Virus record (IMG/VR): IMGVR_UViG_3300035698_016830
Span: 29,237 to 93,236 of that record
Length of the DNA: 64,000 bases
Strand: one strand, 5' to 3'
Source of the DNA: a virus
Below the pieces are notes generated by a model. It saw nothing but the letters and a program-made list of their open reading frames with translations, did not search any database and was not told where the DNA came from. Shown piece after piece: positions 34,480-40,136 of the stretch (the stretch's first letter is position 1; every line of letters starts with the position of its first letter). Made by a program: the position numbers and the translations under genes.

Positions 34480-34552
34480 GCACCCATACCTCAATCGATA
34501 GAGGACTCCCCTTATAAGGGAGCAGTTCTTGGTTCGAGTCCAAGTGGGTGTA
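34480..34552 (+). tRNA. tRNA-Ile(UAU), no encoded CCA
   Basis: GCACCCA/TGGGTGT acceptor; CCTC/GAGG D arm; CTCCC-cTTATaa-GGGAG anticodon arm; CTTGG-TTCGAGT-CCAAG T arm. Confidence 0.9.
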
Positions 34553-35471: not shown

Positions 35472-35924
35472 ATGAGAAAATTCAAACCATTTCAAATAAG
35501 GTGGAAAGAAGCTTTAGGCAAAGCAGAATGCCCATACCTTTATAGATGGACCTTTATTTTTTTCAATTACACTGTTAGAATACATCATTGGATCAGATCA
35601 GATGATAATAGGTATTTTCATGATCATGCTTGCAATCTTATTTCAATTATACTAAAAGGAAGGTATCATAATGTAGTGCCTTTGGATGATAATAATCCAG
35701 ATGTTACTAATTGCAGGAAGATTGAAGCTAGGGCTTGGAGACCTTGGTACGCAAAAGCAACAGCGAAGCATTATTTGCAAATACCTAAAGAAGGAGCATG
35801 GACTTTACTTTTGCAAGGACGACCATATCATAAATGGGGCTTCTACGTGAATAGCCATAAATGGAGACCATTAAGATATTTTAGTAAATTTGGAGTGATA
35901 CAAGATGAAAACTACAGCGGGTAG
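35472..35924 (+). CDS. Cupin-like phage protein
   Basis: RIHHW..DD..FHDH...H....WTL....KWGF. Confidence 0.55.
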   Translation: MRKFKPFQIRWKEALGKAECPYLYRWTFIFFNYTVRIHHWIRSDDNRYFHDHACNLISIILKGRYHNVVPLDDNNPDVTNCRKIEARAWRPWYAKATAKHYLQIPKEGAWTLLLQGRPYHKWGFYVNSHKWRPLRYFSKFGVIQDENYSG

Positions 35925-36047
35925 CTCAGCGGTAGAGCGTCCATTTAGTTCGTGTTGGTTGTGTACAGGCCATATCGAGCGAACATGTGGAAGGTCGGTA
36001 AAGAGAGTTTGTTGGTCCAATCTTTGGTTCGATTCCACCCCTGCTGA
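35915..36047 (+). tRNA. tRNA-shaped gene with a 35-nt expansion of the anticodon loop and a 26-nt insertion in the T stem; identity unassignable
   Basis: CAGCGGG/CCTGCTG acceptor; canonical TAGCTCAGCGGTAGAGC D arm; TCCAT/GTGGA stem; AGGTC; GGT[26 nt]GG-TTCGATT-CCACC. Confidence 0.75.
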
Positions 36048-36083
36048 TTAGAAAAGTTCTTTATAATTATTTAGGAACAGCAT

Positions 36084-37457
36084 GTGAGTACAACTTTTGA
36101 GGCATTAGCTACAACAGTCACCAAGCCAGCTAAAGAAGTAGAAAGTAAGGCTCTGTGGCTTAAGACGAATCCCGTTCTGTCTGAGGATAGAACCCTAATT
36201 AGAGGAGGGATGTGGCATCACCAGAGAGCTTTCTGGACGCTCCCTAACTTCATTAAAGGTCTTGTTGGGGGTTATGGAAGCGGCAAGACTAATGTTGGCT
36301 CTAAGAGGGTCATAGCGTCCGCTCTAACCAACGCCCCTGCCCCTGTAGCTGTTATCAGTCCTACTTATAAGGTAGCTAGAGAAACCACTATATTGACGAT
36401 CTGCGAGCTTTTAGCAGGTAAGCAAACAATCTTTGGAAGAAGTGAATTATGGTGGAAGTTTAACAAAACTGCTCATGAATTTAAAATTCGTTTTAGAGGA
36501 CGGGAAGCTAGAATACTTATTTATTCAGGTGATAACCCTCTTGGTCTTCGTGGGCCTAACTTAGCTGCTGCGTGGATTGATGAACCGTTTATCCAAGACA
36601 GAGAAGTGTTTATGCAAATGATCGCCCGTGTTAGACATCCTGAGGCTGTTTTAAGTGAAATTTTATTGACTGGAACTCCAGAAAGTTTAAATTTCGGTTA
36701 TGAAATTTGTGAAGGTGATGAAAAAGAAAACTATGATATTGGATATATTACTGCTAGCACAAGAGCAAATAAAGTATTATTACCAGGCTATGTAGAGAGA
36801 TTGGAAGAAGCTTACACAACTAAAGCTGCTGAGGCCTATATTGATGGTGGCTTTGTAAACATGTCTGAAGGTATGGTGTTCTATGCTTTCAATCGGTTTG
36901 AGCATTGCCAAGAATTAGAGATACCAGAGGGGATACAATTGGGTTGTGGTATGGACTTCAATGTTAATCCTATGGCTATGATTGTTTTTTGGCGTGCTGG
37001 TAATCATATGCATTTCGTAAAAGAGTACCAATTACCTAATGCGGACACAGAATTTGCTTGTGAGGTACTTAGGGAAGAATGGGGAGATCGTCTTACAACT
37101 ATATATCCTGATGCTACTGGGGATGCAAGAAAAACTGCTGCTCCTGGCGGTAAGACAGATTTCTATTACATTCGTAAAGCCGGGTTTGATATTCAAGCTA
37201 AATCCACAAATCCAAAACGTAGAGATTCTTACAATGCTGTGAATGGTAAGTTTAAACCTAAGAATGGTGAATTCAGTTTATCAATAAGTAAAACAGGCTG
37301 TAAGAAGTTGAAAGGTTTCCTACTTCAGTATAGTTATGAGTTGATGAATAAGCAGGAAAAGATGAGCCATCTACTTGATGCGTTCCGATATCCTGTGACT
37401 TATTTGTTCCCAGTTGATGGCGATATGGCCAGAACAGCACGTCTTACAGGATTTTAA
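36084..37457 (+). CDS. terL: Terminase large subunit
   Basis: GGYGSGKT, LRGPNL..WIDEP, LTGTPE, GMDFNVNPM, PDATG and HLLDAFRY. Confidence 0.93.
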   Translation: MSTTFEALATTVTKPAKEVESKALWLKTNPVLSEDRTLIRGGMWHHQRAFWTLPNFIKGLVGGYGSGKTNVGSKRVIASALTNAPAPVAVISPTYKVARETTILTICELLAGKQTIFGRSELWWKFNKTAHEFKIRFRGREARILIYSGDNPLGLRGPNLAAAWIDEPFIQDREVFMQMIARVRHPEAVLSEILLTGTPESLNFGYEICEGDEKENYDIGYITASTRANKVLLPGYVERLEEAYTTKAAEAYIDGGFVNMSEGMVFYAFNRFEHCQELEIPEGIQLGCGMDFNVNPMAMIVFWRAGNHMHFVKEYQLPNADTEFACEVLREEWGDRLTTIYPDATGDARKTAAPGGKTDFYYIRKAGFDIQAKSTNPKRRDSYNAVNGKFKPKNGEFSLSISKTGCKKLKGFLLQYSYELMNKQEKMSHLLDAFRYPVTYLFPVDGDMARTARLTGF

Positions 37458-39695: not shown

Positions 39696-40136
39696 ATGAA
39701 AGCAATAATATTTGATATTGATGGAACATTGTCCTTGGTTGGTGAACGAGCTAAGTATCTTCAACAATCACCAAAGGATTGGGATGCTTTCTACGAAGCC
39801 TGTTATCAGGATGAATCTAATAAGCCTATCGTGGCTTTGTATAAGAATCTTTATTGTGTTAGAGAAATATATAAGACTAAATTTATTTTACTTACTGGAA
39901 GGCGAGAAAATACTAGGGATATGACTAACGAGTGGTTGTGGTTTCATAAAATAGGCTATGATATGCTCTTGATGCGACCTGATGGTGATTTTAGACCCGA
40001 TACAGAAGTGAAACCAGAGCTTATCAAGGGTCTTGGAATTATAGACCCTATAATTTTCGAAGATAGAAATAGCATGGTACAGAAATGGCGTAGTATGGGG
40101 CATACCTGCGTACAAGTGGCTGACGGGAATTTTTAA
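39696..40136 (+). CDS. HAD phosphatase resembling the polynucleotide kinase 3'-phosphatase domain
   Basis: IIFDIDGTL, LLTGR, FEDR..V..WR..G..C.QVADGNF. Confidence 0.82.
   Translation: MKAIIFDIDGTLSLVGERAKYLQQSPKDWDAFYEACYQDESNKPIVALYKNLYCVREIYKTKFILLTGRRENTRDMTNEWLWFHKIGYDMLLMRPDGDFRPDTEVKPELIKGLGIIDPIIFEDRNSMVQKWRSMGHTCVQVADGNF

What the first reader, a model, noticed from the sequence alone, without database searches (positions are those of the whole stretch)
35915..36047. tRNA scaffold with hairpins grafted into both the anticodon loop and the T stem
Seen: acceptor stem, D arm, anticodon stem, variable loop and TTCGATT loop are textbook. The 7-nt anticodon loop is replaced by 42 nt (35945-35986) folding as GTTCG/CGAAC plus TGGTT/GGCCA. 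The T stem GGT|GG is split by 26 nt (36000-36025) closed by AAAGA/TCTTT. Removing both extras restores a 72-nt tRNA. The inserts are too short for group I introns and show no clear bulge-helix-bulge. Inference: either a doubly intron-containing tRNA spliced by an unknown route, or a non-decoding tRNA mimic (for example an anticodon-nuclease decoy or a stable carrier for a small RNA). It sits immediately before terL.
Basis: partly seen in the sequence, partly recalled or inferred. Interest (0 to 1): 0.75.

Follow-up and report, generated by a model that had tools for sequence, protein, structure and literature searches.

The report
Valine-tRNA look-alike with grafted hairpins
The 133-base element is a real tRNA-shaped RNA gene of a salt-lake phage, one member of a family I could not find described that keeps the marks of a valine tRNA, lacks a workable anticodon loop, carries variable hairpin grafts and travels with one small metal-binding (cupin) gene, so it is more likely a working tRNA mimic than a tRNA with introns.

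Summary
Window 35915-36047 is a complete tRNA frame with 42 nt in place of the anticodon loop and 26 nt splitting the T stem. It is identical in three other assemblies.

It is not a one-off. I found about 20 related genes in other phage contigs and in the cultured Antarctic phage PANV1. In 19 of 20 neighbourhoods they lie within 1 kb of the same roughly 150-aa cupin gene, and in 14 within 30 nt of it. In the window the cupin's stop codon is tRNA positions 8-10.

- The stems vary with compensatory changes: 331 of 336 cells are paired.
- A35, C36 and A73, the valine identity set, are invariant.
- U33 is kept in only 5 of 16 members.
- Loops measure 6 to 136 nt, so even insert-free members are non-canonical.
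- Grafts recur at the 5' side of the anticodon loop and after T-stem base 51, differ completely between close relatives, and often end in loops with 6-nt palindromes (8 seen, 0.5 expected).

No splicing motif or splicing enzyme was found.

Best reading (0.55): a non-decoding valine-tRNA mimic. Its function is not known, and no RNA data were available.

This scan has noted similar valine-tRNA look-alikes and cupins among tRNA mimics on other DNA.

The parts
35472..35924 (+). 150-aa cupin gene (the 'anchor'). Its stop codon TAG (35922-35924) is tRNA-like positions 8-10.
   Evidence: phrog_4786 'cysteine dioxygenase', E 9e-26. No Pfam hit. 1388 homologs. AF2 model pLDDT 79 and only generic cupin fold matches. 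A family member lies within 1 kb in 19 of 20 neighbourhoods.
35915..36047 (+). The whole tRNA-like gene (133 nt)
   Evidence: Rfam RF00005 30.4 bits. Identical in L081, L082 and L083.
35915..35939 (+). Acceptor 5' strand (35915-35921), U8 A9, D arm (35924-35938), G26
35940..35944 (+). Anticodon stem 5' strand TCCAT, which pairs with 35987-35991 GTGGA
   Evidence: This stem covaries across the family.
35945..35986 (+). 42-nt expanded anticodon loop: base helix 35948-35952/35980-35984; apical hairpin 35956-35960/35968-35972 with the loop GUGUACA (35961-35967, containing the palindrome UGUACA); conserved A34-A35-C36-A37-U38 at 35982-35986
   Evidence: Fold, palindrome test, invariant A35 and C36
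35992..35999 (+). Variable loop AGGTC and the first three T-stem bases GGT
36000..36025 (+). 26-nt graft in the T-stem 5' strand, after position 51
   Evidence: Same site as the 22-nt graft in L232 and the 1-2-nt bulges in L097, L086 and L236. The 58-nt graft in L103 and the 1-nt bulge in L231 lie one base to either side.
36026..36047 (+). T-stem bases GG, T loop TTCGATT, T-stem 3' strand CCACC, acceptor 3' strand CCTGCTG, A73. No encoded CCA.
35905..36051 (+). 48-aa ORF overlapping the element; judged not to be a gene
   Evidence: The frame is closed in L106, L231 and L178, the insert-encoded parts share no amino-acid similarity, and the ATG falls out of the cupin's conserved QDE codons. No Pfam hit.
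36084..37457 (+). terL, the downstream neighbour (not a conserved partner)
   Evidence: PF03237. 80 terL relatives have no such element upstream.

Best explanation
The element is a functional, non-decoding tRNA-like RNA descended from a valine tRNA. It belongs to a phage RNA family that I could not find described. The family keeps the full L-shape scaffold and the three main bacterial valine identity marks (A35, C36, A73). It has given up the canonical anticodon loop. It uses two or three fixed points (the 5' side of the anticodon loop, the T-stem 5' strand after base 51, and sometimes the D loop or variable region) to carry fast-changing hairpin grafts. Many grafts end in loops with a self-complementary hexamer, as in kissing-loop dimerisation sites.

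The gene is made with, and genetically tied to, a small 3-His cupin gene. In the window, RNase P cutting at the tRNA-like 5' end would remove the cupin mRNA's stop codon.

Shown: the scaffold, its conservation by covariation, the invariant A35/C36/A73, the loss of U33, the graft sites, the palindrome enrichment and the gene linkage.

Inferred: that the RNA is made and kept unspliced, that ValRS charges it, that it pairs loop to loop, and that it acts as a mimic, decoy or scaffold in a tRNA-centred host-phage conflict, or together with the cupin.
For: 1. Real and reproducible: Rfam tRNA 30.4 bits; identical in 3 assemblies; no indels.

2. Family and linkage. Relatives were found through a stray contig in read laying and through the cupin. 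19 of 20 cupin neighbourhoods with DNA hold a member within 1 kb, 14 of them within 30 nt, and the member lies upstream in some and downstream in others. The frame parser found 13 distinct frames within 1 kb of a cupin gene, against 4 in 1.5 Mb of cupin-free phage loci.

3. Selection on structure: 331 of 336 stem cells are paired and 16 of 21 pairs show double changes. With correct partners 267 of 272 cells pair, against 201 +/- 7 with shuffled partners.

4. Identity. A35, C36 and A73 are each 16 of 16, and also hold in L235-L238. These are the bacterial valine determinants (PMC9976931).

5. Not a decoder. U33 is kept in 5 of 16 and N34 is A in 8 of 16. Loops of 6, 8 and 9 nt occur in members without inserts.

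6. Grafts are not one mobile element. They are single-copy in the genome, share no substantial motif, and differ wholly between relatives whose cupins are 81-86% identical.

7. Palindromes. 8 hairpin loops hold 6-nt palindromes, six different hexamers, against 0.52 +/- 0.66 in 300 shuffles. Stems under them contain G.U pairs.

8. No splicing kit and no BHB.

9. Precedent. Plant-virus valine TLSs tolerate large stem-loop insertions (PMC9976931).
Against: I have no evidence that the RNA is made.

The members were partly collected with a parser that demands paired stems, so the paired fraction is partly by construction. A35, C36 and A73 were not imposed.

In the window's copy, A35 and C36 lie inside the predicted base helix GTTCG/CGAAC. 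Its cloverleaf-with-grafts fold is 6.1 kcal/mol above the MFE, against 0-3.5 for other members, and its z-score is only -1.45.

In 4 of 11 insert-bearing members the last seven loop bases read UU-NAC-NN, as if the insert sat exactly before a normal valine loop. In the window one 35-nt excision gives UUAACAU.

In the cultured phage PANV1 an RNA ligase and a phosphatase lie next to the module. That would also suit cut-heal-seal splicing.

The family has C4-G69, not the U4-A69 of E. coli tRNA-Val.

The cupin's function is unknown, and linkage could partly reflect shared ancestry.
Confidence: 0.55

Rival explanations
1. It is a true valine tRNA gene interrupted by short introns of an unknown kind. 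The introns are cut out and the ends healed and sealed by host or phage enzymes, giving a 72-76-nt decoding tRNA-Val(AAC).
For: Removing 35 nt gives the loop UUAACAU. L102, L230, L232 and L238 end their inserts just before UU-NAC-NN. PANV1 has an RNA ligase and a phosphatase beside the module. PNKP-type phosphatase genes lie near the cupin in the window, in L090-096 and in a P0109 contig. Lak megaphage tRNAs were reported with unexplained introns (PMC6784885).
Against: Insert-free members still have 6-, 8- and 9-nt loops or lack U33. Most insert-bearing members give no canonical loop on any single excision. Inserts in the T stem and D loop would each need their own splice. There is no BHB above chance and no group I match. 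The record has no endonuclease, RtcB, RNA ligase or kinase. A34 in half the members is unusual for bacterial decoding.
Confidence: 0.18
2. It acts only in cis. It is a tRNA-shaped processing and 3'-end signal (RNase P / RNase Z 'punctuation') that separates the cupin message from terL and controls cupin output, and the released RNA has no role of its own.
For: The cupin stop codon lies inside the tRNA frame in the window, L102 and L103-105, and within a few nt of it in L097, L098, L106, L231, L232 and L235. No promoter or terminator above shuffle level flanks the element.
Against: In L099, L101, L230, L236, L237 and L238 the element lies upstream of the cupin, and in L086, L089 and L178 it is 400-800 nt away. 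A processing signal needs neither invariant A35/C36 nor palindromic apical loops.
Confidence: 0.13
3. It is a decaying tRNA gene that has collected random insertions.
For: Default tRNA finders miss it. Thermodynamic stability is unremarkable (z -1.45). The cloverleaf is 6.1 kcal/mol above the MFE.
Against: Stems are fully kept through compensatory changes across about 20 diverged members. Identity bases are invariant, graft sites recur, and the gene linkage is conserved.
Confidence: 0.04
4. The region encodes a 48-aa cysteine-rich peptide (35905-36051), and the tRNA likeness is secondary.
For: The frame is open, with GGAG 9 nt before the ATG. The same frame is open in L103, L102 and L086.
Against: The frame is closed in L106, L231 and L178. 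The insert-encoded parts share no amino-acid similarity. The ATG is a by-product of the cupin's conserved QDE codons. No Pfam hit.
Confidence: 0.02

Closest known systems
Valine-accepting tRNA-like structures (TLS-Val) of tymoviruses such as TYMV
   Same: A non-decoding tRNA mimic at the 3' side of a viral message that keeps the valine identity bases A35 and C36 (and often A73). Large stem-loop insertions are tolerated without loss of valylation (PMC9976931).
   Different: TLS-Val has a pseudoknotted acceptor arm and belongs to plant RNA viruses. This element has a plain 7-bp acceptor stem and a full D arm, sits inside a DNA phage operon, and its valylation is untested.
'Enigmatic' introns in Lak megaphage tRNA genes (Devoto et al. 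2019, PMC6784885)
   Same: Phage tRNA genes carrying short unexplained inserts that are conserved between genomes.
   Different: Those were called as anticodon-loop introns in tRNAs with assignable anticodons. No T-stem grafts, cupin linkage, loss of U33 or palindromic loops were reported.
Bacterial and phage Y RNA-like tRNA mimics (YrlA, Rfam RF02553)
   Same: A non-coding RNA that imitates the tRNA elbow and acceptor region and is tied to one partner protein gene.
   Different: YrlA is circularly permuted and partners with Ro/Rsr. Rfam finds no YrlA match in the window. There is only a weak hit (25 bits, gathering 69) near the cupin of Caulobacter phage CcrColossus.
Archaeal tRNAs with several BHB introns, including T-arm introns
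   Same: More than one insert, at non-canonical positions including the T arm.
   Different: No bulge-helix-bulge above chance. The context points to a bacterial host: a CsrA gene in related contigs, a GGAG Shine-Dalgarno motif before the overlapping ORF, and a cultured relative on Paraglaciecola. No EndA in the record.
Kissing-loop dimerisation sites (HIV-1 DIS) and multimerising phage RNAs (phi29 pRNA; ROOL and GOLLD)
   Same: Apical loops of 7-8 nt presenting a 6-nt self-complementary sequence, often flanked G...A. Comparison from my own knowledge of those systems, plus PMC7357161 and bioRxiv 10.1101/2024.12.08.627333, which appeared in the search lists but were not read.
   Different: Pairing has not been shown here. 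The element is far smaller than ROOL or GOLLD and is built on a tRNA frame.

Membership tests
Canonical tRNA (Rfam RF00005) | Cloverleaf with 7-bp acceptor stem, D arm, 5-bp anticodon stem, T arm with a TTCRA loop | tested here: met
   The T stem is complete only if the 26-nt graft is looped out.
Canonical tRNA (Rfam RF00005) | Score at or above the curated gathering score | tested here: inconclusive
   30.4 against 29 bits with permissive filters. Not reported with default filters or by default ARAGORN.
Canonical tRNA (Rfam RF00005) | 7-nt anticodon loop with U33 and a purine at 37 | tested here: not met
   42-nt loop in the window. Across the family U33 is kept in 5 of 16 and loops measure 6-136 nt.
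Bacterial tRNA-Val identity set | A35, C36 and A73 | tested here: met
   16 of 16 each, plus L235-L238. The rule is from PMC9976931.
Bacterial tRNA-Val identity set | G3-C70 and U4-A69 in a regular acceptor helix | tested here: inconclusive
   G3-C70 in the window and in 11 of 16 members. Position 4-69 is C-G in 16 of 16, not U-A.
Bacterial tRNA-Val identity set | Charged with valine by ValRS | not testable with these tools
   Needs an aminoacylation assay.
Archaeal/eukaryal protein-spliced tRNA introns | Bulge-helix-bulge placing both cuts at the insert borders | tested here: not met
   A permissive motif occurs in 314 of 500 shuffles, and no hit puts the cuts at the borders.
Archaeal/eukaryal protein-spliced tRNA introns | Splicing endonuclease and ligase available | tested here: not met
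   No PF01974, RtcB, RNA ligase or kinase in the 106-kb record, which is about 80% complete. The host's enzymes are unknown.
Group I intron in a tRNA anticodon loop | Catalytic core, usually more than 200 nt | tested here: not met
   The inserts are 42 and 26 nt, and Rfam reports no intron match at E up to 10.
Tymovirus-type TLS-Val | Pseudoknotted acceptor arm at the 3' end of the genome | tested here: not met
   The acceptor is an ordinary 7-bp stem inside an operon.
YrlA / Y RNA-like | Permuted tRNA-like module with a Ro-binding helix | tested here: not met
   No RF02553 match in the window. The order of the arms is the normal one.
Kissing-loop dimerisation element | Self-complementary hexamer exposed in an apical loop | tested here: met
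   UGUACA in the loop at 35961-35967. Family-wide, 8 loops against 0.52 expected.
Kissing-loop dimerisation element | Dimer forms in solution | not testable with these tools
   Needs native gels with loop mutants.

The most novel reading that the evidence does not exclude
A new class of phage ribonucleoprotein or RNA device. A valine-chargeable tRNA mimic pairs with copies of itself through palindromic loops on exchangeable grafts. It works with a thiol-dioxygenase-like cupin (and, in some phages, RNA-end healing and sealing enzymes), either to blunt host immunity that attacks tRNAs or to feed an aminoacyl-tRNA-dependent reaction outside the ribosome.
Probability: 0.2. Interest if true: 0.85.

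Novelty: new variant of a known kind. Interest (0 to 1): 0.68.

Why it matters
Phage tRNA genes are usually read as codon-usage helpers, and odd ones are discarded as pseudogenes or 'introns'. Here a whole family keeps the shape and the synthetase marks of a valine tRNA while dropping what the ribosome needs. It adds fast-evolving hairpins at fixed points and stays tied to one protein gene across very different phages. That points to a use of the tRNA shape outside decoding.

The family includes a cultured phage-host pair, PANV1 on Paraglaciecola IceBac 372, so the questions can be put to the bench: is the RNA made, spliced, charged or dimeric, and what does the cupin do? It also shows that standard tRNA finders miss such genes.

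Tried and rejected
- **Assembly chimera:** rejected.
- **Repeat or miniature mobile element:** both inserts are single-copy in the genome, and the inserts of different members share no substantial motif.
- **Conservation upstream of terL:** none in 80 terL relatives.
- **Exact-pattern scans of the viral collection:** neither the interrupted nor the uninterrupted exon pattern was found. The 14-mer CAGCGGGTAGCTCA gave mostly chance hits inside coding sequence.
- **DNA similarity to deposited phages:** none.
- **ARAGORN's single 62-nt-intron tRNA-Lys(UUU) reading:** rejected. It needs a U.U mismatch in the anticodon stem, no base 26 and a 3-bp T stem, while insert-free relatives align with both 'exon' sides of the two-insert reading.
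- **BHB search:** uninformative, because the permissive motif appears in 63% of shuffles.
- **RNA evidence:** no RNA holder listed for this stretch.
- **MAFFT alignment for a covariance model:** it misaligned the anticodon stems, so no model was built and an index-based parse was used instead.
- **Cupin function:** Pfam and NCBIfam gave nothing, and fold searches gave only generic cupins.
- **Relatives of a virus record** cannot be drawn by the genome search.
- **Literature:** none of the full-text searches turned up a description of this family.

Full report
**1. The observation**

Window 35915-36047 reads as a full tRNA frame. It has a 7-bp acceptor stem with one G.U pair, U8 A9, a textbook D arm, G26, the anticodon stem TCCAT/GTGGA, the variable loop AGGTC, the T loop TTCGATT and A73.

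Forty-two nt stand where the 7-nt anticodon loop should be. The T stem GGTGG/CCACC is complete only if 26 nt (36000-36025) are looped out after its third base.

Default ARAGORN and default Rfam see only the ordinary tRNA-Ile(UAU) at 34480-34552. With permissive filters the Rfam tRNA model matches exactly 35915-36047 at 30.4 bits against a gathering score of 29.

The base helix is GTTCG/CGAAC and the apical hairpin is TGGTT/GGCCA with the loop GUGUACA. The 26-nt piece has only a weak helix of its own.

The window lies in a 105,936-bp IMG/VR phage record from salt-lake metagenomes. The 133 nt are identical in three other assemblies, and contigs of four more runs show no indel. So the element is real.

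**2. It is not a one-off**

Eighty phages with a related terL (up to 72% identity) have nothing like it upstream of terL. The position before terL is therefore not the conserved feature.

The lead came from read laying. A second contig shares the 5' half and then diverges right after the anticodon stem. Fetching it gave a 158-nt homolog. It has the same acceptor 5' strand, D arm and anticodon stem. It has a 92-nt 'loop', a different but complementary T stem, and G-C where the window has G.U.

That homolog lies downstream of a 151-aa ORF that is 65% identical to the window's ORF 35472-35924. This protein is a cupin: phrog_4786 'cysteine dioxygenase', E about 1e-26. It has no Pfam or NCBIfam hit and 1388 homologs. 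The AF2 model has pLDDT 79, and the fold matches are only generic metal cupins.

Using the cupin as an anchor, I collected further neighbourhoods from viral contigs, metagenome assemblies, three MAGs and deposited phages. Of 20 distinct neighbourhoods with DNA in hand and a cupin at least 40% identical, 19 hold a member of the same tRNA-like family within 1 kb. In 14 of them it lies within 30 nt of the gene's start or stop. L100 is the exception.

The element lies downstream of the cupin in some loci and upstream in others. In the window, L102 and L103-105 the cupin's stop codon TAG is tRNA positions 8-10.

The linkage is specific. My frame parser found 13 distinct frames within 1 kb of a cupin gene. 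In 1.5 Mb of held phage loci without one it found 4. One of those 4 is the L086 element on a contig that ends before where the cupin gene would lie, and two are ordinary tRNAs.

**3. What is conserved and what is not**

I segmented 16 distinct members by index.

| Feature | Result |
|---|---|
| Stem cells paired | 331 of 336 |
| Stem pairs with double (compensatory) changes | 16 of 21 |
| Paired cells, acceptor + anticodon + T stems, correct partners | 267 of 272 |
| Same, partner strands shuffled among members | 201 +/- 7 (max 231) |
| A35, C36 (counted back from the stem's 3' strand) | 16 of 16 each |
| A73 | 16 of 16 |
| A37 | 13 of 16 |
| U33 | 5 of 16 |
| N34 | A 8, U 6, G 1, C 1 |

Part of the pairing figure is by construction, because the parser demands paired stems. 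The variety of sequences that meet the demand is not by construction.

Four later members (L235-L238) also obey the A35, C36 and A73 rule. These three bases are the main bacterial valine determinants (PMC9976931).

Loop lengths are 6, 7, 8, 9, 40, 42, 56, 70, 84, 85, 92, 133 and 136 nt, and about 165 nt in L235. Members with no insert at all still have non-canonical loops: L106 GAAACAU, L101 AUACAU, L089 UGAAACAU, L097 AUGUAACAU, L098 AUUGUACAC. So the family keeps what a synthetase reads and drops what the ribosome needs.

**4. The grafts**

Extra segments recur at fixed points.

- *The 5' side of the anticodon loop:* window, L086, L102, L178, L099, L230, L231, L232, L235, L236, L238.
- *The T-stem 5' strand, after base 51:* window 26 nt, L232 22 nt, and bulges of 1-2 nt in L097, L086 and L236. 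The 58-nt graft of L103 sits one base earlier, and the 1-nt bulge of L231 one base later.
- *Elsewhere:* the D loop in L092 (104 nt), and a long variable arm in L236.

L232's cupin is only about 58% identical to the window's, yet it has the same two-graft layout.

Relatives with 81-86% identical cupins carry entirely different grafts:

| Member | Anticodon loop | T-stem graft |
|---|---|---|
| window | 42 nt | 26 nt |
| L103 | 9 nt | 58 nt |
| L102 | 84 nt | 3 nt (ambiguous) |
| L178 | 136 nt | none |
| L106 | 7 nt | none |

The grafts are single-copy in the genome and share no substantial motif.

Their apical loops are enriched for 6-nt palindromes. Eight loops carry six different hexamers (UGUACA, UUGCAA, AGUACU, UCAUGA, GAUAUC, UCUAGA). 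Shuffles give 0.52 +/- 0.66, and none of 300 reached 8. AGUACU appears again in the cultured phage's graft. Several loops have the format G-NNNNNN-A, and the stems under them contain G.U pairs. This looks like an RNA-level feature of the kissing-loop kind, not a perfect DNA palindrome.

**5. Introns?**

I found no bulge-helix-bulge above chance. A permissive motif occurs in 63% of shuffles, and no hit puts the cuts at the borders. There is no group I or ribozyme match. The record, which is about 80% complete, has no splicing endonuclease, RtcB, RNA ligase or kinase.

The host context is bacterial. Related contigs carry a CsrA gene. The overlapping ORF is preceded by a GGAG Shine-Dalgarno motif. 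A cultured relative grows on Paraglaciecola.

ARAGORN's intron mode offers one 62-nt intron and tRNA-Lys(UUU). That reading needs a mismatched anticodon stem, no base 26 and a 3-bp T stem, and insert-free relatives align with both sides of the two-graft reading.

Several points keep the intron idea alive at about 0.18. One 35-nt excision in the window gives UUAACAU. Four of 11 insert-bearing members end in UU-NAC-NN. PANV1 has an RNA ligase and a phosphatase right beside the module. PNKP-type phosphatase genes also lie near the cupin in the window (39696-40136), in L090-096 and in a P0109 contig.

**6. Other readings**

- *The 48-aa ORF* (35905-36051) is unlikely to be a gene. The frame is closed in three orthologs, the insert-encoded parts are unrelated, and the ATG is a by-product of the cupin's conserved QDE codons.
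- *Decay* is contradicted by the covariation.
- *A purely cis role* as an RNase P/Z processing signal is possible where the element abuts the cupin. No promoter or terminator above shuffle level lies nearby. But this does not explain the invariant A35/C36, the palindromic loops, or the loci where the element lies upstream or hundreds of nt away.

**7. Caveats for this copy**

A35 and C36 (35983-35984) lie inside the predicted base helix. The cloverleaf-with-grafts fold is 6.1 kcal/mol above the MFE, against 0-3.5 for the other members. The nearest-neighbour model ignores tertiary contacts. No RNA run was available.

**8. Comparison with what is known**

By function, the nearest thing is the valine-accepting tRNA-like structure of tymoviruses. 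It keeps A35 and C36 and tolerates large stem-loop insertions, but it has a pseudoknotted acceptor arm. In print for phages there are the unexplained 'introns' of Lak megaphage tRNAs (PMC6784885). YrlA-type mimics are permuted and pair with Ro. I found no description of this family in the full-text searches.

The paper on the cultured phage PANV1 reports four tRNAs from tRNAscan-SE (PMC9239159). The 124-nt member at record 113999-114122 is not annotated.

This scan's own notes on other genomes describe a 'two-headed valine tRNA look-alike', 'HDH-cupin genes among tRNA mimics', and a tRNA-Phe-shaped RNA seen unspliced. I treat these as leads, not as support.

**9. Verdict**

The best reading (0.55) is a non-decoding valine-tRNA mimic with exchangeable, probably self-pairing hairpin grafts, coupled to a cupin gene. 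What it does is unknown. I rate it a new variant of a known kind (tRNA-like RNAs), with interest 0.68.

Noticed in passing
window 39696-40136: A 146-aa stand-alone PNKP-type HAD phosphatase domain (PF25109, E 3e-24) lies between the portal region and thyX. The record has no kinase or RNA ligase partner. Similar phosphatase genes lie near the cupin in L090-096 and in a P0109 contig.
   Followed up: partly
L238 (MW805361.1) 462-2920; tRNA-like at L238:2189-2312: In the cultured Antarctic phage PANV1 the order is RNA ligase, phosphatase, gp193, an unannotated 124-nt tRNA-like gene, then the cupin. This gives an isolate in which the module could be tested.
   Followed up: partly
L232:1205-1255, 1430-1485, 2090-2140: Three small acceptor-stem-plus-T-arm 'minihelix' elements (TGCTCTG...TTCGATT...CAGAGCA) flank the cupin and the full tRNA-like gene.
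   Followed up: no
L099:2091-2164 and 2241-2314: Two near-identical tRNA-shaped genes with the 8-nt loop ACGCAAGU and G73 stand in tandem with two valine-type members just upstream of the cupin.
   Followed up: no
L090:1980-2170 versus L092:1890-2059: L090-type contigs keep the 5' part of the L092 element (with the 104-nt D-loop graft), but the T arm and acceptor 3' strand are replaced by unrelated sequence. The loop differs at base 34 only (AUUCACAU against AUUUACAU), which keeps a valine-type triplet.
   Followed up: partly
L239 (Caulobacter phage CcrColossus) 1607-1721: A weak YrlA-like match (permuted tRNA-like; 25 bits, gathering 69) lies in the gap upstream of a methyltransferase gene and a distant (34%) cupin homolog.
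   Followed up: no
L084:5928-6036, L086:2163-2228, L088:1819-1939: Weak matches to Rfam Ref70 (up to 39.5 bits, gathering 115) on the strand opposite the element, between the cupin and the tRNA-like gene. Probably chance.
   Followed up: no
L086:3569-4771: A 400-aa TnpB/IS605-OrfB-like ORF with a C-terminal CxxC...CxxC lies about 860 nt from the cupin. Identified by eye only.
   Followed up: no
contigs carrying P0109: In a phage whose cupin is 85% identical, the terL after the 230-nt gap is more than 886 aa long and carries a LAGLIDADG domain, presumably an intein. The window's terL (457 aa) has none.
   Followed up: no
L124:5135-5209: A 75-nt tRNA frame with the same acceptor 5' strand (CAGCGGG), the loop CCUUGGA (no U33) and a 2-nt T-stem bulge, with no cupin in the held 11.8 kb.
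   Followed up: no
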